From Rhodospirillaceae bacterium (GTDB taxonomy: Bacteria > Pseudomonadota > Alphaproteobacteria > UBA6615), in NCBI GenBank assembly GCA_002713365.1, contig PASR01000012.1:9848-73847 (forward strand): a stretch of 64,000 bases of DNA, written 5' to 3'. The stretch's first letter is position 1. Each line of letters opens with the position of its first letter. This document shows positions 12,004 through 43,956 of this stretch, piece after piece. The notes below the pieces were generated by a model. The model saw only the letters and a program-made list of their open reading frames with translations. It searched no databases and had not been told where the DNA came from. The position numbers were made by a program, and so were the translations under genes.

Positions 12004-12080
12004 TGGTCGGGACGGCAGGATTTGAACCTGCGACCCCCACACCCCCAGTGTGATGCGCTACCAGACTGCGCTACGTCCCG
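12004..12080 (-). tRNA. tRNA-Pro (anticodon GGG)
   Basis: Cloverleaf on the minus strand: acceptor CGGGACG/CGTCCCG, D-arm GCGC-AGTCTGGTA-GCGC, anticodon arm TCACA-CTGGGGG-TGTGG (U33, GGG, G37), T-arm GCAGG-TTCAAAT-CCTGC, discriminator A and an encoded CCA. Confidence 0.9.
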
Positions 12081-30656: not shown

Positions 30657-30684
30657 AGAGTTTTATAAAACTAATATTTTAACA

Positions 30685-30762
30685 ACTGGGGTGTCGCCTT
30701 TTCTAGTCGACTGAGATCATACCCATAGAACCTGAGCTGGATAATGCCTGCGTAGGGAGTAA
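30685..30762 (+). promoter_or_regulatory. TPP (thiamine pyrophosphate) riboswitch, THI element
   Basis: ACUGGGGUGUCGCC...CUGAGA...ACCC..GAACCUGAGCUGGAUAAUGCCUGCGUAGGGAG is a near-perfect match to the THI-box consensus (GGGGUG, CUGAGA, ACCUGAUCUGGAUAAUGCCAGCGUAGGGAA). It sits directly upstream of thiO-thiS-thiG. Confidence 0.9.
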
Positions 30763-30766
30763 AATT

Positions 30767-31915
30767 ATTAATAAATTTTCAAATTCTCAACCTAATGTAT
30801 CTATAATAGGCGCAGGTGTATGCGGTCTAAGTATAGGCTGGCGGTTAGCTAGTGCTGGTTGTCAAGTTAATATATATGAGCGCGGCAAATCTGGACGGGC
30901 AGCTTCTTGGGCTGCTGCTGGTATGTTAGCAGCTGGCGTTGAATGTGAACCCGGAGAAGAAAACCTATTAAAGCTAACAACATTAAGTCAGAAACTTTGG
31001 CCTAAATTTCTTCATGACCTTAGCAAAGACTCTAAACAAAATCCTGAGTATCGCAATGAAGGAACACTTGTTGTTGCTATAAACCGTGATGACGCGACAA
31101 GATTAGAATTCACCTATAATTTTCAAAAGAACCTTGGAATAAACCTTGAATGGCTTGATGGATATGAAACTAGAAAACTTGAGCCTCATTTAAACCCATC
31201 TATCGTGGCTGGCGTATACAGTTCTAACGATCATCAAATAAATAATCGTTTACTTATGAGATCATTAGAGGAAGCCTTTGTTCATAAAGAAGGAATAATT
31301 CACGAGTACACAGAAGTAACTGACATAGAGACACATAATGAATCTGTGAAGGGTATAATAGTTGATGGCTCATTAATAGAAACTGATGTGGTGATTATTG
31401 CAGCAGGTGCCTGGTCTAATAATATAAACGGACTTACTAAGGAATGTATCCCTCCGGTCAGACCTGTTAAGGGACAAATGCTATCATTGAAAATGGAGCA
31501 AAATTCACCGCTATTAAAACATGTAATTTGGGCCCCAAATGCATATTTAGTTCCACGTAATGATGGAAGTTTATTAGTTGGAGCAACTATAGAGGAAAAT
31601 GGTTTTAATCCCGACTTAACAGCTGGTGGAATATTTTCCTTGTTAGAGGCCTCTTGGCGTGTGATACCAAATATTGAAGAGTTACCCATAAAAGAAATGT
31701 GGGCTGGATTCAGGCCAACTAGCAGAGACGATGCTCCAATACTTGGCGCAACAAAGATTAAAGGACTTGTAATGGCAACAGGTCATCACAGAAATGGGAT
31801 ACTTCTAGCACCAGTTACAGCTAACGCGGTAAGTGAATTAATTTTAAATGGTGAAACAACTAAAGAAGTAGAGCCTTTTTCAATAGAACGATTCAATAAT
31901 AACATTGAACATTAA
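30767..31915 (+). CDS. thiO: Glycine oxidase ThiO (FAD-dependent); start probably non-AUG (AUU at 30764/30767), because the ATG at 30923 would remove the FAD-binding GxGxxG motif
   Basis: In-frame extension upstream of 30923 encodes ...NVSIIGAGVCGLSIGWRLASAGCQVNIYERGKSG..., the Rossmann dinucleotide-binding motif. That frame is open back to the stop at 30704 and contains no ATG/GTG/TTG. An AGGGAG Shine-Dalgarno at 30754-30759 precedes ATT codons. Confidence 0.7.
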   Translation: MNKFSNSQPNVSIIGAGVCGLSIGWRLASAGCQVNIYERGKSGRAASWAAAGMLAAGVECEPGEENLLKLTTLSQKLWPKFLHDLSKDSKQNPEYRNEGTLVVAINRDDATRLEFTYNFQKNLGINLEWLDGYETRKLEPHLNPSIVAGVYSSNDHQINNRLLMRSLEEAFVHKEGIIHEYTEVTDIETHNESVKGIIVDGSLIETDVVIIAAGAWSNNINGLTKECIPPVRPVKGQMLSLKMEQNSPLLKHVIWAPNAYLVPRNDGSLLVGATIEENGFNPDLTAGGIFSLLEASWRVIPNIEELPIKEMWAGFRPTSRDDAPILGATKIKGLVMATGHHRNGILLAPVTANAVSELILNGETTKEVEPFSIERFNNNIEH

Positions 31916-36242: not shown

Positions 36243-37259
36243 ATGAGTCGAGGCCCCACAACTCCAGTTGGAAAATACCCACAAACTAGAATGAGACGGA
36301 ATCGTCGCCATGAATGGTCACGCAGAATGGTACGAGAAAATATCCTTAGTTCAAGTGACCTTATTCTTCCAATTTTCATTTCTAACGAGATGGGTAAATT
36401 AGAAAAGATCGATTCTATGCCGGGAATTTTTCGTCATAGTATTGATTTAATTTCTGATATAGTTGGTGAAGCAAAATCATTAGGAATACCTTCTGTAGCT
36501 TTATTTCCTGCAACACCACCTGAATTAAAAACACCCATGGCAGAGGAGGCATATAACCCTAACAATTTAATATGCCGGGCCATAAGAATAATAAAAGAAT
36601 CCCATCCAGACATTGGTATAATTTGTGACGTTGCATTAGACCCTTTTAATTCTGATGGCCACGATGGCATAGTTCGAGATGGACACGTAGTGAATGATGA
36701 AACAATAGAAGCATTATGCAGACAAGCACTAGTTCAAGTTGAGTCAGGATGTGATATAATTGCCCCATCTGATATGATGGATGGGCGTGTTGGAGCCATC
36801 CGTGAGACTTTAGATAATTCTGGTTATAATCATACTCAAATCATGTCTTATGCGGCAAAATATTCATCCGCTTTTTATGGGCCTTTTCGGGATGCTATCG
36901 ATAGCTCGGGTTTCTTAGCTGGTGAAACTAAAGATACTTATCAGATGGACCCCGCTAATTCTGATGAGGCTTTGAGAGAAGTAGCGCTAGATATTAGTGA
37001 AGGTGCTGATATGGTAATGATTAAACCAGGCCTACCCTACTTAGATATAATTTGGCGCATAAAAGAAAATTTTGGTATCCCTACTTTTGCATATAACGTA
37101 AGTGGTGAGTATGCAATGCTAAGATACGCCGCTGATTCAAATGCTATAGAGTATACTAAGGCAATTATGGAAACATTAATATCTTTTAAAAGAGCTGGCT
37201 GTAATGGAGTATTAACTTATTTTGCGTTAGAAGCAGCCAGGGTTATAAACTCACAATGA
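36243..37259 (+). CDS. hemB: Porphobilinogen synthase (delta-aminolevulinic acid dehydratase)
   Basis: 338 aa with active-site lysine regions (...MIKPGLPYLDII...) and an N-terminus RRNRRHEWSRRMVRE. Confidence 0.9.
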   Translation: MSRGPTTPVGKYPQTRMRRNRRHEWSRRMVRENILSSSDLILPIFISNEMGKLEKIDSMPGIFRHSIDLISDIVGEAKSLGIPSVALFPATPPELKTPMAEEAYNPNNLICRAIRIIKESHPDIGIICDVALDPFNSDGHDGIVRDGHVVNDETIEALCRQALVQVESGCDIIAPSDMMDGRVGAIRETLDNSGYNHTQIMSYAAKYSSAFYGPFRDAIDSSGFLAGETKDTYQMDPANSDEALREVALDISEGADMVMIKPGLPYLDIIWRIKENFGIPTFAYNVSGEYAMLRYAADSNAIEYTKAIMETLISFKRAGCNGVLTYFALEAARVINSQ

Positions 37260-37882
37260 TTAATAAGAAACACAATAAAGACCAAAAAAATAAAGCACCT
37301 GCCGGATATTACGTGTATTACAATCCAAGAGTACATCAATTTAAACTCTTAGCTATATTAGCCATATGTATAGTCTTAATTACATTACCTTTGATGGTAG
37401 AAAAAACAGAACCAGGGCCTCTATATATACTAAGTTTATTCATAATGGGGTTTCTCTTGTGGGCTTATGTAACTCTCCTTCGTATCCGTGATAGACGTCC
37501 GCAGGTAATAATTGATGAAGCCGGAATCTTTGTGAGAGATTGGTATAGCAATATACTGCCATGGTCAGAAATCGAATTTATATCACACTCTAGTTCGGTT
37601 AGAAGAGGCATAATAAGTGCACTAACTCGCTCACGTAGAGGTCCATATTTACTATTTAAATTTTCTAACAACCCAGAGTATATTTCATCTATATCTCCTC
37701 CATTATCATGGATCCATAAAATATGGATAGAAATGGAACTACAAGAACCTGCTATCATGGAATTTGGTTTAGATAGTAAAGCCACACAAATTCTCAAAGC
37801 AATTGAAGAACATATTGAATATTGGCAAAAATCATCAAATTCAGATATTGAAGATAGTGCAATAATTGTAAGTACTAATTAA
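37256..37882 (+). CDS. Hypothetical membrane protein (2 N-terminal TM helices + soluble domain)
   Basis: 208 aa. Start overlaps the hemB stop (ATGA). Confidence 0.5.
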   Translation: MINKKHNKDQKNKAPAGYYVYYNPRVHQFKLLAILAICIVLITLPLMVEKTEPGPLYILSLFIMGFLLWAYVTLLRIRDRRPQVIIDEAGIFVRDWYSNILPWSEIEFISHSSSVRRGIISALTRSRRGPYLLFKFSNNPEYISSISPPLSWIHKIWIEMELQEPAIMEFGLDSKATQILKAIEEHIEYWQKSSNSDIEDSAIIVSTN

Positions 37883-38943: not shown

Positions 38944-40041
38944 ATGAAGAGACGTAAATTTATTAAAACAGCCGGTTTAGCTAGTGCTGGCGGTGCAATA
39001 GCTGTATCAAATATGGCGGCACCCGCAATAGCTAAGGACCGCATAGAAATAGCTATGGTGGCCACTTGGCCAAGAGACTTTCCTGGACTAGGGACAGGAG
39101 CTCAACGTATGGCGCAGCGCATTAAAGATATGAGTGATGGTCGCATTCAAATACAATACTTTGCAGCAGGAGAACGCGTTGGTGCATTTGATTCATTTGA
39201 TGAGGTCGCATCAGGCAATGCCCAGGCATATCATGCAGCGGATTATTACTGGAAAGGAAAACACCCAGGTTGGGCATATTTTACTTCAGTTCCATTTGGA
39301 CTTACTTACACAGAAATGAATGCCTGGATAAGGTTTGGAGGTGGCCAACAATTATGGGATGAGCTAGCTGGAGGCTTTGGCATTAAAGCTGTGATGGCTG
39401 GAAGTACAGGCGTACAAATGGGCGGTTGGTTTAATAAAGAGATTAATACTGCAGACGATCTTAAAGGCCTAAAAATGAGAATACCAGGTCTCGGTGGTGA
39501 CGTTATGGCTAAATTGGGGGCATCCCCAGTATCGCTTCCAGGTGGACAGATTTATGAAAATCTCGTGTCTGGAGCAATAGATGCCACAGAGTGGGTTGGT
39601 CCATGGAATGATAGTTTCATGAAGTTTTATGAAGCTGCAAAATATTACTACTTCCCGGGGATGCATGAGCCAGGCTCAATGTTATCATTTGGAATGAATG
39701 CTTCATTTTGGAGTAAATTATCAAAAAATGATCAAATTCTTATTGAGTCAGCAGCATCTATGGAAAATGATGTAATGATGTCTGAGTACAATGCTAAAAA
39801 TGGCGCTGCACTCGCTTCTTTAATTAAAGACCAAGGTGTAGAGCTAAGAGAGTTTAGTGATGAAATCTACGATAGCTTTGGCGTTGCAGCTAATGAAGTA
39901 TTTGATGAAGTAAGAGGACATAGTGCTCTAGCTAACAAAATTCACGAGAGCTTTCTCAAATCGAGAAGTGAGGTCGGTGGATGGGCTAATATAGCAGATG
40001 TTGCCTACCTTCGTCAGAGAAATAGAGTTCTCGGACTTTAA
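38944..40041 (+). CDS. dctP: TRAP transporter substrate-binding protein (DctP family)
   Basis: 365 aa with a twin-Arg-like signal (MKRRKFIKTAGLASAGGAIA...AIA) and DctP-family periplasmic domain. Confidence 0.85.
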   Translation: MKRRKFIKTAGLASAGGAIAVSNMAAPAIAKDRIEIAMVATWPRDFPGLGTGAQRMAQRIKDMSDGRIQIQYFAAGERVGAFDSFDEVASGNAQAYHAADYYWKGKHPGWAYFTSVPFGLTYTEMNAWIRFGGGQQLWDELAGGFGIKAVMAGSTGVQMGGWFNKEINTADDLKGLKMRIPGLGGDVMAKLGASPVSLPGGQIYENLVSGAIDATEWVGPWNDSFMKFYEAAKYYYFPGMHEPGSMLSFGMNASFWSKLSKNDQILIESAASMENDVMMSEYNAKNGAALASLIKDQGVELREFSDEIYDSFGVAANEVFDEVRGHSALANKIHESFLKSRSEVGGWANIADVAYLRQRNRVLGL

Positions 40042-40062
40042 ACATCTATAAGCAAGCTCTAT

Positions 40063-40090
40063 AAAGCGGAGTTGTTAAGCTCCGCTTTAT
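40063..40090 (+). terminator. Intergenic hairpin between dctP and dctQ (partial terminator/attenuator)
   Basis: AAAGCGGAG-ttgttaa-GCTCCGCTTT, a 9-10 bp stem followed by a T/A-rich stretch. Confidence 0.5.
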
Positions 40091-40196
40091 AATTCCAATG
40101 TTTTTTAATTAAATATACAAACATTTGTTTCGTTTCATAAACATTTTATTCTAGCGATTTCAAATATATGAGGAATGCAAATTTGAGGTCGAAAAA

Positions 40197-41228
40197 GTGA
40201 TAGCTTCAACTGGTACTACTCATGACTGGGAAGTTAGTAAACTTGATTTATTTTATCGCTTGATTAGTCTGACTACGGTCAGTATCGGGTTTCTATTTCT
40301 ATTTAATAATTATTTAATTTTTTGGCGTGGCTGGCCTGGGATTATTAATCTCTTTGCAACAAAAGGGTGGTTTAGTCTCGAAGAACTGCAGAAACCTCTT
40401 ACCTCAGAAGCAATCAATTTAGGATGGCTGCAATTATCAAGTTATATATTAGTTATAATTTTAGTTATTACTTATATATACTTTACAAGAGATGACTATC
40501 TACGTTCTGACGCAAAAAAACTATCATCACTATCGGCATATATTATTAGGTCCGCCTTCTGGGCGGTATTAATAATTGGATTAACAGATAGTATCATCTC
40601 GTTTTTACGTGTTGAGGACTTACTAGATTCAGTAGTCGGAGATAATATGGCTAAAAATTTGGGTATATCACGTTACCGTGGAACATATATTCATTATCCG
40701 ATTATAGGTTTATCTTTTATAATAGCATATTTTATTAAATCACTTGGATTTACATGGTTAGCAATTCTAGTTGTTCTAGCTGAATTTCAAATAGTAATTG
40801 TAAGGTTTATATTTTCATATGAACAAGCGTTTCTAGGTGATCTTGTGCGCTTTTGGTATGCAGCACTTTTCTTATTTGCCAGCGCATACACCTTAATTGA
40901 AGAAGGGCATGTAAGAGTTGACGTCCTTTATGCAGGGTTTTCCGCGCGTCGCAAGGCATTGGTTAATGCTTTAGGTTCATTATTACTTGGTATTCCTCTT
41001 TGCTGGATTATATTAGCTCTAGGTATGTGGGGAAAAGCAACAATAATAAACAGCCCATTACTTGCATTTGAAATGACTCAAAGCGGATTTGGATTATATG
41101 TAAAATATCTAATGGCCGGTTTTCTTGCAGTATATGCCATCACAATGATGATTCAATTTGCAAGCTACTTTTTATCAAACATTGCAATTTTTCGAAATGA
41201 ACCAAATCAAATATCGATAGAAAATTAA
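40197..41228 (+). CDS. dctQ: TRAP transporter small permease (DctQ family) with extra N-terminal membrane domain
   Basis: 343 aa. The DctQ signature ...EEGHVRVDVLY... sits in the C-terminal half, preceded by about 150 aa of extra hydrophobic segments. Confidence 0.75.
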   Translation: MIASTGTTHDWEVSKLDLFYRLISLTTVSIGFLFLFNNYLIFWRGWPGIINLFATKGWFSLEELQKPLTSEAINLGWLQLSSYILVIILVITYIYFTRDDYLRSDAKKLSSLSAYIIRSAFWAVLIIGLTDSIISFLRVEDLLDSVVGDNMAKNLGISRYRGTYIHYPIIGLSFIIAYFIKSLGFTWLAILVVLAEFQIVIVRFIFSYEQAFLGDLVRFWYAALFLFASAYTLIEEGHVRVDVLYAGFSARRKALVNALGSLLLGIPLCWIILALGMWGKATIINSPLLAFEMTQSGFGLYVKYLMAGFLAVYAITMMIQFASYFLSNIAIFRNEPNQISIEN

Positions 41229-41289
41229 TGTATCAAATATTTTTAATTTATAAAACTTATACGACAATAATTGAATTGTTTCGAATATA

Positions 41290-43956
41290 ATGGAACTTTT
41301 TTTCCTAGCATTACTTGTTTTATCGATGGCAGGAGCTTTAGCTGTTGGCTTCCCTGTAGCCTTTGCTTTACCTGGTTCAGCAATACTAACAATAGGTGCC
41401 GCATCAATTGCAGGCTTTATTTTTACTGGTGACGTAAGCTCTTATTTTTCTCAAGACGGTCCAATTCAATGGCTTACTGCCGGAGTTACTAACTTTAGAG
41501 GAGTATATTGGGAAGTTGAAAGAGATACCTTAATAGCTGTTCCTTTATTTGTATTCATGGGAATAATGCTTCAACGTTCAAAAATTGCAGAAGATTTATT
41601 AGTTACAATGGCCCAATTATTTGGTCCAGTGCCTGGTGGACTTGGTATATCTGTAGTTTTAGTTGGAGCTTTACTGGCGGCCACCACAGGAATTCTTGGC
41701 GCTACGGTAGTAGCTATGGGTTTAATTTCTTTACCTGCAATGCTACGAAACAATTACTCAAAATCGTTGGCATCTGGCACTATAGCAGCAGCTGGCACTC
41801 TTGGACAAATTATCCCCCCGTCTATTGTATTAATTATACTCGCCGACCAACTATCAAATGCAACAGATCAGGCGGCTACTTTACGATGGATTGAATATAA
41901 AAACGCCACTGGAAAATCTCTACTACCTAATGAGTTTGGAATAACTTCGACAAGTGCTGGAGATATGTTTTTGGGAGCTCTTCTGCCTGGGATTGTGCTG
42001 GTAGGACTTTACGTTAGTTATATACTCATTACAGCATTAGTTAGACCAAAAATGGCTCCGCCTATCCCGTCAGAAGAGAAATTTAATTTACGTTTTGGTA
42101 TTAAAGTAGTTCTGGCCTTGGTACCACCTCTTACATTGATCTTAGCAGTTCTCGGTTCAATTATTATGGGAGTCGCTACAGTAAACCAGGCTGGTGCTAT
42201 TGGTGCTATTGGAGCAATGATAATGGCTGGATATCGTTTGATGGAAGGCAAACGAAGAGCATTCACTCCTGCAATAATTGCTATATTATCAATTATAGCT
42301 ATTCTAATTTTATTAAATCAATTTGATCTAAATATTAAAAATATTAGTAATAATAGGGATTTGATTGGTGTCTCATTAGCAATACTAGCTGTTATTGCAC
42401 TTCTAATATCCGTAGCCTGGAGTACCTGGCGTACTATCAAAATTAATGACACCCTTTTGGGTGTAATGATAGAAACCGCAAAAACAACATCAATGGTTTT
42501 TATAATACTCTTAGGTGCGGCCATGTTAACGGCAGCATTTCGCAGTTTTGGAGGCGAGGAATTAGTTAAAGAATTTCTTACCAGCTTACCTGGCGGTTTC
42601 TGGGCGCAATTTATTGTTGTAATGGCAGTTATATTTTTTCTGGGTTTCTTTTTAGACTTTATAGAAATAGCAGTAGTAGTTGTCCCTATCGTCGCTCCTA
42701 TACTTTTGTCAGATCCCGCGGCGAATGTAACCGCAGTATGGCTGGGGGTAATGATAGGTGTAAACATGCAAACCTCTTTCCTAACCCCCCCATTTGGTTT
42801 TGCACTTTTCTACCTAAGAGGTGTTGCTTCCATTGAAGTAAAAACAACCGATATATATAAAGGTGTTATCGCGTTTATAATTCTACAATTAGTGGGTTTA
42901 GGTATTGTGGGTGTGTTTCCAAGCTTAGTAAACTTTCTACCTAATCAAGCGTTTTTGAACTCTGATACAGCACCACCTCCAAAAAATAGAAGACTACAAA
43001 TATGCATGGAAGAATATTTATATGAATGGTATCAAGAAAATACTGTATTTCTTAGATCTGAAATACAAATTGCTAAAAATATAGATATTAGTTACTTACC
43101 AGAGAAACGACTACAGGAACTTAATAAAAGCTTTTTGTATGCAGAAAAAACTTTCAATTTATTTGAAAATATTTTTGAGGCAAAAGAACAAGTTATTAAA
43201 GCAACTCCTGAATATAGACCAATACATAAATTAGCTCGTAAACAGGAAAAAATAATAAGAAATATAGATAAAGAAATAGAAAATCTTAATAATGAGATTC
43301 GTAGAATTAAACGATCCGAATCATCTTCTGAATCAACCACAAAAGAATTTGAAGAAAGATTGTATTACCTTGAAGAAAAGAAAGCAGAAGAAAAAGCAAA
43401 AATACCTAATGACTGGAATACAATTAGAAAAGAATTTGCTAGTCATTTGAATAAAGAAAAACAAGCTAGAAGAATATATAGACAGAATGTAGATAAAGCA
43501 TATCAACCCGTCATGAAATATATTTTATTGGCAAAATCAGGGGATTCACTAAACCAGATTCGTGACGAAATGCTTCATGTTCGTAACTTAGTAAGACATG
43601 GTTCAGTGAAAGAAATTAAAGCAGCTATTAAAAATACACGGATAAAACTTACAAAATCTGCTCCTGATACAAATTCCATAAGTAGATTACTAACAAAAGC
43701 TTCTCGAGTTTTAAAAACAAATAATAAAAGTCGTCAAAAATCTACTAAATATATAGATGAAGCAGTTGAGATATACTTAAATGAAGTAAAATGGCGATCA
43801 AGAGCTTCTTTAGAACTATATGAAAATTTAAACATATATAATGAAGCAATTAAAAGCTCTATTGGATTAAGATTACAAGACCGTTTACCGTCAACTGTAG
43901 CCAACAGTATAGCAATATGTCGCTCAACACATCGCGACATTTCACTAAATTTTTAA
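41290..43956 (+). CDS. dctM: TRAP transporter large permease (DctM family) fused to a ~320-aa charged coiled-coil C-terminal domain
   Basis: 888-aa single ORF. The DctM-like membrane domain (MELFFLALLVLSMAGALAVGFPVAFALPG ... LVNFLPNQAF) is followed from about residue 565 by a K/E/R-rich, predicted coiled-coil extension (EIENLNNEIRRIKRSE..., EERLYYLEEKKAEEKAK...). Confidence 0.8.
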   Translation: MELFFLALLVLSMAGALAVGFPVAFALPGSAILTIGAASIAGFIFTGDVSSYFSQDGPIQWLTAGVTNFRGVYWEVERDTLIAVPLFVFMGIMLQRSKIAEDLLVTMAQLFGPVPGGLGISVVLVGALLAATTGILGATVVAMGLISLPAMLRNNYSKSLASGTIAAAGTLGQIIPPSIVLIILADQLSNATDQAATLRWIEYKNATGKSLLPNEFGITSTSAGDMFLGALLPGIVLVGLYVSYILITALVRPKMAPPIPSEEKFNLRFGIKVVLALVPPLTLILAVLGSIIMGVATVNQAGAIGAIGAMIMAGYRLMEGKRRAFTPAIIAILSIIAILILLNQFDLNIKNISNNRDLIGVSLAILAVIALLISVAWSTWRTIKINDTLLGVMIETAKTTSMVFIILLGAAMLTAAFRSFGGEELVKEFLTSLPGGFWAQFIVVMAVIFFLGFFLDFIEIAVVVVPIVAPILLSDPAANVTAVWLGVMIGVNMQTSFLTPPFGFALFYLRGVASIEVKTTDIYKGVIAFIILQLVGLGIVGVFPSLVNFLPNQAFLNSDTAPPPKNRRLQICMEEYLYEWYQENTVFLRSEIQIAKNIDISYLPEKRLQELNKSFLYAEKTFNLFENIFEAKEQVIKATPEYRPIHKLARKQEKIIRNIDKEIENLNNEIRRIKRSESSSESTTKEFEERLYYLEEKKAEEKAKIPNDWNTIRKEFASHLNKEKQARRIYRQNVDKAYQPVMKYILLAKSGDSLNQIRDEMLHVRNLVRHGSVKEIKAAIKNTRIKLTKSAPDTNSISRLLTKASRVLKTNNKSRQKSTKYIDEAVEIYLNEVKWRSRASLELYENLNIYNEAIKSSIGLRLQDRLPSTVANSIAICRSTHRDISLNF

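What the first reader, a model, noticed from the sequence alone, without database searches (positions are those of the whole stretch)
38944..43956. TRAP transporter with oversized Q and M subunits; DctM carries a ~320-aa coiled-coil C-terminal domain
The dctP-dctQ-dctM locus is recognisable from the DctP periplasmic domain, the HVRVD motif in Q and the DctM N- and C-terminal membrane signatures. Both permease subunits are far larger than canonical ones. DctQ is 343 aa (typical is roughly 160-230), with about 150 extra N-terminal residues that contain additional hydrophobic helices. DctM is 888 aa (typical is about 430). Its membrane domain carries internal insertions and ends at ...LVNFLPNQAF, and it is followed by about 320 residues of K/E/R-rich predicted coiled coil (for example EIENLNNEIRRIKRSESSSESTTKEFEERLYYLEEKKAEEKAK). 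I do not know of a characterised TRAP system with such a soluble extension on the M subunit. It could be a regulatory, scaffolding or partner-docking module. An alternative is a cryptic fusion of a downstream gene. The substrate is unknown.
Basis: partly seen in the sequence, partly recalled or inferred. Interest (0 to 1): 0.6.

Follow-up and report, generated by a model that had tools for sequence, protein, structure and literature searches.

The report
TRAP transporter with extra periplasmic domain
This is a real, widely conserved subfamily of bacterial TRAP nutrient importers (probably for small 2-oxo acids such as pyruvate) whose membrane subunits carry extra helices and a 330-residue helical domain found in no domain library or paper searched here; the domain most likely faces the periplasm and its job is unknown.

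Summary
The locus is dctP (365 aa), dctQ (343 aa) and dctM (888 aa), each an intact ORF.

The long DctM is not a fusion artefact:
- More than 120 protein clusters of 864-890 aa match it over 98-100% of its length.
- 40 of 44 complete loci in a scan of species-representative genomes show the same P-Q(316-381)-M(879-890) layout as an intact M reading frame. They include SAR11, SAR116, roseobacters, Gammaproteobacteria and Desulfofustis.

The closest canonical relatives (54% identity) have a Q of 192 aa and an M of 463 aa that ends exactly where the extension starts.

The extension is not a simple coiled coil. AlphaFold2 gives a confident (pLDDT 94) all-helical multi-bundle domain. It has about 45 near-invariant residues, an invariant C-terminal HRDISLNF tail and one invariant cysteine pair. 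It matches no Pfam or NCBIfam family and no solved structure beyond generic four-helix bundles. It was found only fused to DctM.

Three lines of evidence place it in the periplasm: the solved SiaQM topology, loop charge bias and the cysteine pair.

DctP keeps all six TakP ligand and cation residues, so a 2-oxo acid substrate is likely.

The function of the domain is inferred only. My best guess is a module that docks or retains the binding protein.

I rate this a new variant of a known kind, of moderate to high interest.

The parts
38944..40041 (+). dctP: TakP-like TRAP solute-binding protein, 365 aa, with a twin-arginine signal (RRKFIK)
   Evidence: PF03480 E 1e-53 and TIGR01409 Tat signal. 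Best PDB sequence match is TakP/SmoM 2hzk, E 4e-76, then the 2-oxo-acid binders 4pet, 5cm6 and 7ug8. All six TakP ligand/cation residues (Y100, Q156, R177, E214, W215, E240; PMC1839085) are conserved in the alignment, which runs into the C-terminal swapped-helix region.
40060..40091 (+). 14-bp stem / 4-nt loop hairpin just after the dctP stop, with a T6 run 9 nt downstream; possible attenuator or mRNA 3'-end stabiliser between the SBP gene and the permease genes
   Evidence: RNA fold of 40035-40205: -38.3 kcal/mol, z = -4.2, 0 of 200 shuffles as stable; sequence read. Function is inferred, not tested.
40197..40736 (+). dctQ N-terminal extension (aa ~1-180): family-specific, 3-4 extra hydrophobic helices
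   Evidence: No Pfam match. Absent from canonical Q subunits of 183-192 aa. Present in all 47 orthologues, total Q length 316-381 aa. Aa 91-185 are 35-54% identical without gaps; aa 1-90 are poorly conserved. No detectable duplication of the Q core (hhalign probability <1%).
40737..41228 (+). dctQ canonical core (aa ~181-343), four helices, HVRVD motif at 238-242
   Evidence: PF04290 aa 199-322; alignment with canonical Q; loop K+R pattern fits N-in/C-in.
41290..42942 (+). dctM membrane domain (aa 1-551)
   Evidence: PF06808 and TIGR00786. Sequence matches to the solved TRAP permeases 7qha_B, 7qe5, 8thi and 9pym reach to aa ~552. About 90% identity across the family in core blocks.
42241..42444 (+). 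Insertion of two extra transmembrane helices in dctM (aa 318-385), flanked by positively charged, probably cytoplasmic loops
   Evidence: Absent from the 463-aa S. faviae DctM; present in the 541-aa S. indolifex DctM. Hydrophobic segments at 326-346 and 358-378; flanking loops have K+R 2.9 and 2.5.
42943..43956 (+). dctM C-terminal extension (aa 552-888): conserved linker TAPPPxN(P/R)RLQxC followed by an all-helical multi-bundle domain ending in HRDISLNF
43003..43005 (+). Cys572 codon (TGC), first member of the invariant cysteine pair
   Evidence: C-C in 236 of 237 sequences; the single exception has lost both (S/D). Exactly two Cys in the domain in 43 of 44 loci.
43918..43920 (+). Cys877 codon (TGT), second member of the invariant cysteine pair
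   Evidence: Same evidence as for Cys572.

Best explanation
The locus encodes a member of a distinct, widespread subfamily of DctP-type TRAP transporters. (Shown.) Its binding protein is TakP-like: it binds a small 2-oxo/monocarboxylic acid through a cation and is probably a helix-swapped dimer. (Inferred from conserved residues.) The QM permease is enlarged by about six extra membrane helices, three to four at the N-terminus of Q and two inserted in M. It also carries a ~330-residue helical-bundle domain fused directly to the last transmembrane helix of M, which belongs to the moving 'elevator' transport domain. That domain lies in the periplasm, on the same face where the binding protein docks, and is probably stapled by a Cys572-Cys877 disulfide. 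(Inferred; about 0.8.) Most likely mechanism (speculative; about 0.35-0.4): together with the enlarged periplasmic loop 189-225 and the conserved proline-rich linker, the domain remodels the docking surface. It acts as a platform that captures, orients or retains the dimeric binding protein, and so couples its arrival to elevator movement. Its invariant Arg/His/Asp residues and its invariant C-terminal HRDISLNF tail would be the contact elements.
For: Identity and reality. Conservation: more than 120 clusters of 864-890 aa; intact P-Q-M with the same sizes in 40 of 44 complete genome loci; 732 representative clusters hit by the domain profile, with the 150 listed all DctM-linked fragments or full-length proteins. 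Fold: confident AF2 model.

Periplasmic side:
(i) In the solved PpSiaQM and HiSiaQM structures, Q is N-in/C-in. M has three crossing helices before the cytoplasmic hairpin, and two crossing helices follow the periplasmic hairpin, so the C-terminus is outside. Natural M-P fusions exist (PMC9971032; PMC9352664).
(ii) Our M aligns with those structures to within a few residues of their C-terminus and has no hydrophobic segment after aa 547.
(iii) The insertion adds two helices, so parity is kept.
(iv) Family-averaged loop charges follow the positive-inside rule for that topology. The loop before the last helix has K+R 2.8 against D+E 1.2. The predicted outside loops are acidic, 2.0 against 5.1 and 2.6 against 5.1.
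(v) There are exactly two Cys, invariant, and lost together in the one exception.

Docking idea: the SBP is highly conserved within the family (mean distance 0.32) and shows no large indels against TakP. The novel elements all sit on, or lead to, the periplasmic face. The neighbourhood holds no other conserved partner gene, so the partner must be P, Q, M or a housekeeping component.

Substrate: six of six TakP ligand/cation residues are conserved (PMC1839085).
Against: No direct evidence for any function. TakP-type binding proteins also work with canonical-size QM (S. indolifex has a 359-aa substrate-binding protein, not itself compared with TakP, next to Q183/M541), so a dimeric SBP does not by itself require the domain. 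The domain evolves fast (mean distance 0.68 against 0.32 for the SBP), which is unusual for a surface that binds a conserved partner. The distance-correlation test did not single out the SBP as partner (partial r 0.41 for P, 0.55 for the Q extension). Periplasmic placement rests on homology and sequence statistics, not on a dedicated topology predictor or an experiment.
Confidence: 0.4

Rival explanations
1. Structural strut or oligomerisation module. The periplasmic bundle, together with the six extra membrane helices, enlarges and braces the scaffold of the elevator, dimerises the QM complex, or acts as a fixed-length spacer towards peptidoglycan or the outer membrane. It would not contact the binding protein specifically.
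For: Length is almost invariant (883-890 aa, near-gapless alignment) while sequence identity is only ~32-35%, as expected of a ruler or strut. One helix is 71 residues long, about 105 A. The extension always co-occurs with the Q N-terminal extension, and its residual distances correlate best with that extension (partial r 0.55). In SiaQM, Q is thought to exist to extend the scaffold (PMC9971032).
Against: The domain hangs from the last helix, TM12, which in SiaQM belongs to the moving transport domain, not the scaffold. About 45 near-invariant polar or charged residues and an invariant C-terminal tail suggest specific recognition rather than bulk. The correlation test is weak and confounded by shared rate.
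Confidence: 0.25
2. Periplasmic ligand-sensing or regulatory domain. A four-helix-bundle sensor, like those of chemoreceptors and histidine kinases, binds a small molecule or ion and allosterically gates transport.
Against: The matches cover only 80-115 of 333 residues, at 5-13% identity, and are equally good to cytochrome b562, PsbQ, HPt, talin and designed bundles, so the fold is generic. No 4HB_MCP/TarH or other sensor Pfam family was detected even at E up to 10. No precedent for ligand-gated TRAP permeases turned up in the searches made here, which did not target that question.
Confidence: 0.15
3. Cytoplasmic coiled-coil regulatory or scaffolding tail (one reading of the first reader's proposal). 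The extension faces the cytoplasm and recruits metabolic or regulatory partners.
For: K/E/R-rich helical sequence. Cytoplasmic regulators of TRAP systems are known from my own knowledge (for example the USP protein TeaD), not tested here.
Against: The canonical topology puts the M C-terminus outside, and the insertion keeps helix parity. The loop before the last helix is positive-inside. The invariant, co-lost cysteine pair is atypical for a cytoplasmic domain. There is no hydrophobic segment after aa 547 to bring the chain back in.
Confidence: 0.08
4. Artefact: a separate downstream gene fused by a lost stop codon or an assembly error.
For: None, beyond the composition shift in the last 1 kb.
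Against: The same single ORF of 879-890 aa is intact in 40 of 44 complete loci from diverse taxa, and more than 120 protein clusters of 864-890 aa match over 98-100% of the query. No convincing stand-alone homologue among the 150 best profile hits. Canonical relatives have unrelated genes downstream. The composition shift follows from the amino-acid composition.
Confidence: 0.01

Closest known systems
TakPQM of Rhodobacter sphaeroides (alpha-keto-acid TRAP transporter; TakP = PDB 2HZK/2HZL) and related 2-oxo-acid binders 4PET, 5CM6, 7UG8
   Same: The binding protein is the closest solved relative (E 4e-76), of equal length. All six ligand/cation residues are conserved and the alignment covers the start of the C-terminal helix that mediates the swapped dimer (PMC1839085). 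It has a Tat signal and a P-Q-M operon.
   Different: Only roughly 40% identical to TakP, against 59-80% to the window's DctP in the family loci, so this is a paralogous clade. The TakP paper describes ordinary dctQ/dctM homologues and mentions no extra domain. I could not fetch TakQM to measure them.
SiaPQM sialic-acid TRAP transporters (HiSiaQM 7QE5/8THI, PpSiaQM 7QHA), the structural archetype
   Same: Same DctQ and DctM families. The M core aligns to the last residues of PpSiaM. The elevator architecture and N-in/C-in Q topology are presumably shared.
   Different: SiaQM has 4 helices in Q and 12 helical elements in M, and no soluble domain. This family adds about 3-4 Q helices, 2 M helices, a longer L5b-6 loop and a 330-aa periplasmic domain.
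Natural M-P fusion TRAP transporter of Acidaminococcus intestini (UniProt G4Q5D7, cited in PMC9352664)
   Same: A precedent for a soluble periplasmic domain fused to the C-terminus of the M subunit.
   Different: There the fused domain is the binding protein itself. Here DctP is still a separate gene and the fused domain is an unrelated all-helical bundle.
Canonical and intermediate 'mannitol/chloroaromatic-type' (COG4664-like) DctQM, e.g. Sulfitobacter faviae Q192/M463 and S. indolifex Q183/M541
   Same: 54% and 49% identity to the membrane core. The S. indolifex type already has the two-helix insertion.
   Different: No Q N-terminal extension and no C-terminal domain; their M ends 5-6 residues after the conserved LP motif.
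Four-helix-bundle periplasmic sensor domains (e.g. McpZ 8F7N, QseE 9M07) and other generic 4-helix bundles (cytochrome b562, PsbQ)
   Different: Covers less than a third of the domain, at 5-13% identity, with no family-level sequence match. This is a resemblance of a ubiquitous fold, not evidence of homology.

Membership tests
DctP-type TRAP transporter (TC 2.A.56) | Periplasmic DctP-family binding protein (PF03480) with a signal peptide | tested here: met
   PF03480 E 1e-53; Tat signal TIGR01409 just above its cut-off.
DctP-type TRAP transporter (TC 2.A.56) | Small membrane subunit of the DctQ family (PF04290) | tested here: met
   32.7 bits against a cut-off of 28.3, aa 199-322 only; aligns with canonical Q subunits.
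DctP-type TRAP transporter (TC 2.A.56) | Large membrane subunit of the DctM family (PF06808) | tested here: met
   203.8 bits. TIGR00786 scores 263.5, just under its 268.45 cut-off because of the insertions. Matches solved TRAP permeases.
DctP-type TRAP transporter (TC 2.A.56) | The three genes are co-located and co-oriented | tested here: met
   P-Q-M on the + strand with 155-nt and 61-nt gaps; the same order in 44 complete loci.
DctP-type TRAP transporter (TC 2.A.56) | SBP-dependent, Na+/H+-coupled uptake | not testable with these tools
   Needs transport assays.
TakP-type cation-dependent 2-oxo-acid binding proteins | Carboxylate-binding Arg177 and Tyr100, plus cation ligands Gln156, Glu214, Trp215 (main chain) and Glu240 | tested here: met
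   All six are identical in the phmmer alignment with 2hzk; residue list from PMC1839085.
TakP-type cation-dependent 2-oxo-acid binding proteins | Long C-terminal helix that swaps between monomers (dimeric SBP) | tested here: inconclusive
   Same total length (365 aa) and the alignment runs to TakP residue 352 of 365. Dimerisation itself is not testable here.
TakP-type cation-dependent 2-oxo-acid binding proteins | Actual binding of pyruvate or other 2-oxo acids | not testable with these tools
   Needs fluorescence, ITC or DSF.
Any described protein domain family for aa 552-888 | Significant match to a Pfam, NCBIfam or PDB sequence | tested here: not met
   Best Pfam hit is DUF6730, E 0.0046, 18 bits against a cut-off of 27. 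NCBIfam finds nothing beyond dctM. Best PDB sequence E-value is 0.14.
Four-helix-bundle sensor domains (4HB_MCP/TarH-like) | Family-level sequence match, or a specific structural match over the whole domain | tested here: not met
   The AF2 monomer folds into a bundle with pTM 0.86 and 12 helices separated by short loops, which argues for an intramolecular bundle. No coiled-coil predictor or multimer model was available.

The most novel reading that the evidence does not exclude
A whole clade of TRAP transporters, abundant in marine Alpha- and Gammaproteobacteria including SAR11 and SAR116 lineages, uses a previously undescribed periplasmic, disulfide-stapled helical 'mast' attached to the moving elevator domain. 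With about six extra membrane helices, this mast would hold or gate the dimeric binding protein. If so, binding protein and permease would be coupled in a new way: a semi-permanent SBP-transporter assembly of the kind Gonin et al. proposed for TakP in 2007, rather than free diffusion and collision.
Probability: 0.3. Interest if true: 0.75.

Novelty: new variant of a known kind. Interest (0 to 1): 0.55.

Why it matters
Mechanistic models of TRAP transporters rest almost entirely on the compact sialic-acid SiaPQM systems. Here a large, taxonomically broad subfamily has a much bigger membrane assembly (about 22 helical segments) and a confidently folded 330-residue domain on the face where the binding protein docks. 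It is attached to the helix that moves during transport. It occurs in SAR11-type, SAR116-type and roseobacter genomes.

If the domain handles the binding protein, it bears on an open question: how SBP binding is coupled to the elevator stroke. It also bears on how oligotrophic marine bacteria tune high-affinity uptake of central metabolites such as pyruvate.

Even if the role is purely structural, the domain deserves a family definition. At present these proteins are annotated only as 'TRAP transporter large permease subunit', which hides 40% of the protein.

Tried and rejected
- **Q duplication.** I tested whether the Q N-terminal extension is a duplicated Q core. hhalign of the family N-half against the C-half gave probability below 1%. 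Rejected.
- **Full-length AF2 of DctM**, meant to show how the domain sits on the membrane part. The membrane part came out at low confidence (pLDDT 68, pTM 0.45), probably because the alignment is shallow and more than 59% identical. Unusable for orientation. No coordinates were accessible, so the Cys-Cys distance could not be measured.
- **Foldseek against AFDB50.** The library was not installed.
- **Stand-alone copies of the domain.** The word-indexed protein search with the C-terminal part alone returned only 8 fragments. The exhaustive profile search lists only the top 150 of 732 hits, so the weak tail, where distant stand-alone relatives would be, was not seen. Apparent stand-alone or odd hits are fragments, frameshifted products or chimeras on inspection (P0274, P0238, P0188, P0179, P0213).
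- **Gene neighbourhood** across 55 loci, for a conserved partner or catabolic pathway. Nothing is shared family-wide. There are only lineage-specific neighbours: a sensor kinase/LuxR-type regulator pair in 4-5 loci, ParC in 4 loci and this window, and an FAD-linked oxidase resembling D-lactate dehydrogenase/GlcD (my reading of the sequence, no family search run) near some SAR11 and Lentibacter loci.
- **Mirror-tree or partial correlation of pairwise distances**, to pick the domain's partner. All fast-evolving parts correlate with each other (0.33-0.55). Not discriminating.
- **Link to the characterised SAR11_0864 TRAP binding protein.** It groups with HpsK/IseP-type sulfonate binders (PMC13335735), a group that matches our DctP only weakly (IseP 8t9t, E 2e-10). 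Not the orthologue.
- **Literature.** Three full-text searches for a description of long DctM or extra domains found nothing relevant. The library lacks most subscription-journal papers, so this is not proof of absence.
- **Plasmid collection.** No long-form member; only canonical or intermediate relatives.

Full report
**1. What is in the window**

Pfam and NCBIfam identify them as DctP, DctQ and DctM:
- DctP: PF03480, E 1e-53, with a twin-arginine signal.
- DctQ: PF04290 covers only aa 199-322.
- DctM: PF06808/TIGR00786 is confined to about aa 1-553.

The flanking genes are unrelated housekeeping genes: acyl-CoA dehydrogenase, HemB, a 208-aa membrane protein with no family, an arginine-tRNA-protein transferase (ATE) family protein, then BioY and ParC on the other strand.

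**2. How much is extra**

I aligned the proteins with the nearest canonical relatives found on roseobacter plasmids. These are Sulfitobacter faviae (Q 192 aa, M 463 aa, 54% identical to the core) and S. indolifex (Q 183 aa, M 541 aa).

The additions are:
- In Q, about 165-180 N-terminal residues. Family-averaged hydropathy shows three to four extra hydrophobic segments.
- In M, a 14-residue insertion in the loop at 203-216.
- In M, a ~65-residue insertion at aa 318-385 made of two hydrophobic helices. The 541-aa class shares this insertion.
- In M, 337 residues after the conserved ...LP motif. Canonical DctMs stop within six residues of that motif.

**3. Real or artefact**

The full-length protein retrieves more than 120 protein clusters of 864-890 aa. 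They are 59-100% identical over 98-100% of the query and come from NCBI, ENA, JGI and Tara sources.

Taxa include:
- Roseibium, Loktanella, Thalassobaculum, Marivibrio, Paramylibacter, Hoeflea
- Pelagibacteraceae single-cell genomes, Candidatus Puniceispirillum
- Granulosicoccus, Ectothiorhodospiraceae, Desulfofustis and Quisquiliibacterium

Where the contig allows, nearly every locus shows P (~360-370 aa at its true start), Q (316-381 aa) and a single M ORF of 879-890 aa. L011 is an exception: its M reading frame is interrupted.

A profile of the C-terminal part hits 732 clusters at 50% identity (552 at E up to 1e-10). All of the 150 best are either full-length DctMs or contig-edge fragments. 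The fragments are preceded by the last DctM helix (...LVNYLPNR...) or begin inside the domain. Nearly all end in the same C...H(R/K)D(I/V)SL.F tail; a few are frameshifted or truncated. None is a convincing stand-alone gene.

The fusion-artefact alternative is refuted. The low GC and A-richness of the last kilobase follow from the K/E/N/R-rich composition in a low-GC genome. GC-rich relatives encode the same domain with Ala/Arg/Glu.

**4. What the extension is**

Across 120 homologues the membrane core is about 90% identical. The extension is only about 30-50% identical, yet it aligns almost without gaps.

Its conserved features are:
- the linker T-A-P-P-P-x-N-(P/R)-R-L-Q-x-C
- the motifs ISYLP, EYRPxH...R, IPxxW, A(R)xxYRxNVDxAY, WRxxA and TIGLRxQxRL
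- the invariant tail C-x-x-x-H-R-D-I-S-L-N-F, which forms the very C-terminus

AlphaFold2 with a 51-sequence alignment gives pLDDT 94.1 and pTM 0.86. All five models score at least 92. The model has twelve helices, one of them 71 residues long. This is a folded multi-bundle helical domain, not a low-complexity coiled coil.

**5. Which side of the membrane**

The solved structures give the topology:
- Q is N-in/C-in.
- In M, three crossing helices precede the hairpin that enters from the cytoplasm.
- The second hairpin enters from the periplasm and is followed by two crossing helices.
- The C-terminus is therefore periplasmic. Natural M-P fusions agree with this (PMC9971032; PMC9352664).

Our M fits this topology:
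- It aligns with those permeases to within a few residues of their end.
- It has no hydrophobic segment after residue 547.
- Its insertion adds two helices, flanked by positive loops, so parity is unchanged.
- Family-averaged charges fit. The predicted cytoplasmic loops are K/R-rich (151-171: 1.8 K+R against 0 D+E; 314-325: 2.9 against 0.8; 491-524: 2.8 against 1.2). The predicted periplasmic loops are acidic (46-79 and 189-225: about 2-2.6 against 5.1).

The cysteines add independent support. The domain contains exactly two cysteines in 43 of 44 loci. At the two columns, 236 of 237 sequences are Cys/Cys, and the only exception (P0161) has lost both. That is what a structural disulfide in an oxidising compartment would look like.

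I put the periplasmic placement at about 0.8. It remains an inference.

**6. Substrate**

The DctP's best solved relatives are TakP (2hzk, E 4e-76) and other 2-oxo-acid binders (4pet, 5cm6, 7ug8 'ketoacid-binding protein').

All six residues that bind pyruvate and its bridging cation in TakP are identical in the alignment: Tyr100, Gln156, Arg177, Glu214, Trp215 and Glu240 (PMC1839085). The C-terminal region that forms the swapped helix of the TakP dimer is present.

A cation-mediated 2-oxo or small monocarboxylic acid substrate and a dimeric binding protein are therefore likely. Neither is tested.

The SAR11_0864 sulfonate binder is not the orthologue.

**7. How it may work**

Nothing in the neighbourhood is conserved family-wide. 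The domain's partner must therefore be P, Q, M itself or a general envelope component.

The domain is attached through a rigid-looking, invariant proline-rich linker to the last helix. In SiaQM that helix is part of the moving transport domain. The domain shares the periplasmic face with an enlarged, acidic, highly conserved 189-225 loop.

My preferred reading is a platform that docks or retains the binding protein and couples its arrival to the elevator stroke (about 0.35-0.4). This echoes the 'membrane-bound pathway' proposed for dimeric TakP (PMC1839085).

The rivals are:
- a fixed-length strut or oligomerisation module working with the six extra helices (0.25)
- a ligand-sensing bundle (0.15)
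- a cytoplasmic tail (0.08)

The tests I could run did not separate them. The full-length model was poor. The distance-correlation analysis was non-discriminating. The Q extension is not a recognisable Q duplication.

**8. Known or new**

This is a bona fide DctP-type TRAP system; all three family criteria and the operon criterion are met. It belongs to an architectural subfamily that I could not find described:
- no domain model in Pfam (2025 copy) or NCBIfam release 20
- source annotations that say only 'TRAP transporter large permease subunit', or even 'SLC13 family permease'
- no relevant paper in three full-text searches

The paper library omits most subscription journals, and I could not query TCDB or InterPro. 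Prior mention therefore cannot be excluded.

I class it as a new variant of a known kind. The interest comes from four things: breadth (hundreds of clusters, abundant marine lineages), the confident fold, the attachment to the moving domain on the docking face, and the absence of any functional assignment.

Noticed in passing
window 40060-40091 (+), T-run 40101-40106: A near-perfect 14-bp hairpin lies immediately after the dctP stop codon, in the 155-nt gap before dctQ. It is very stable (z -4.2, 0 of 200 shuffles as stable). It probably attenuates read-through or stabilises the dctP message so that more binding protein than permease is made.
   Followed up: partly
window 30677-30775 (+): TPP (thiamine pyrophosphate) riboswitch, 62.9 bits against a gathering score of 54.3. 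The downstream gene was not examined.
   Followed up: no
window 12007-12080 (-): One tRNA gene (Rfam RF00005, 64.4 bits).
   Followed up: no
window 37256-37882 (+): A 208-aa ORF with two hydrophobic helices and no Pfam match overlaps the hemB stop by 4 nt. It is an unknown small membrane protein between hemB and the arginine-tRNA-protein transferase (ATE) family gene.
   Followed up: no
window 42750-43750: GC drops to 26-31% and AT skew rises to +0.3 within the dctM C-terminal domain. The K/E/N-rich composition of a fast-evolving soluble domain in a low-GC genome explains this; it is not a sign of foreign DNA.
   Followed up: yes
L003, L005, L038, L043 (downstream of the long dctM): A second, shorter DctM-like ORF (458-610 aa) lies just downstream of the long dctM in several Roseibium, Hyphomicrobiales and Marivibrio loci, so a second TRAP system is adjacent.
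   Followed up: no
L011 4322-6981: In this long-read MAG the dctM reading frame is interrupted: a 516-aa ORF, then the C-terminal domain in another frame about 130 nt on. A sequencing frameshift is most likely, but a genuine split was not excluded.
   Followed up: no
L039, L044, L045, L047, L049 (Pelagibacteraceae SAGs); L023, L048: The SAR11-type loci share conserved neighbours. By my reading of the ORF sequences, with no family search run, these look like a ketopantoate-reductase-like protein, an acyl-CoA synthetase and a gamma-glutamyltranspeptidase. L039 and L049, like L023 and L048, also have an FAD-linked oxidase resembling D-lactate dehydrogenase/GlcD nearby, which would fit a 2-hydroxy or 2-oxo acid substrate.
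   Followed up: partly
L005, L027, L029, L037, L038 (upstream); L003 has the regulator only: A sensor histidine kinase with a periplasmic domain, and in most of these loci a LuxR-type response regulator, lie immediately upstream of dctP in several roseobacter, Hoeflea and Hyphomicrobiales loci. This is a possible dedicated two-component regulator of this TRAP subfamily.
   Followed up: no
protein P0274 (239 aa, 1142-nt ENA contig): This is a partial copy of the domain (profile positions 123-332) preceded by a signal-peptide-like N-terminus (MLARVLTLLGLLAGPGLAQ...). If real, it would be a secreted stand-alone version. More likely it is a mis-called start or a chimera on a very short contig.
   Followed up: partly
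window 43933-43953 (aa 882-888) and family-wide: The extreme C-terminus ...D-I-S-L-N-F-COOH is nearly invariant and ends hydrophobic-x-hydrophobic. From my own knowledge, this resembles class II PDZ ligands and the C-terminal signals read by periplasmic PDZ proteases. This is pure speculation and was not tested.
   Followed up: no
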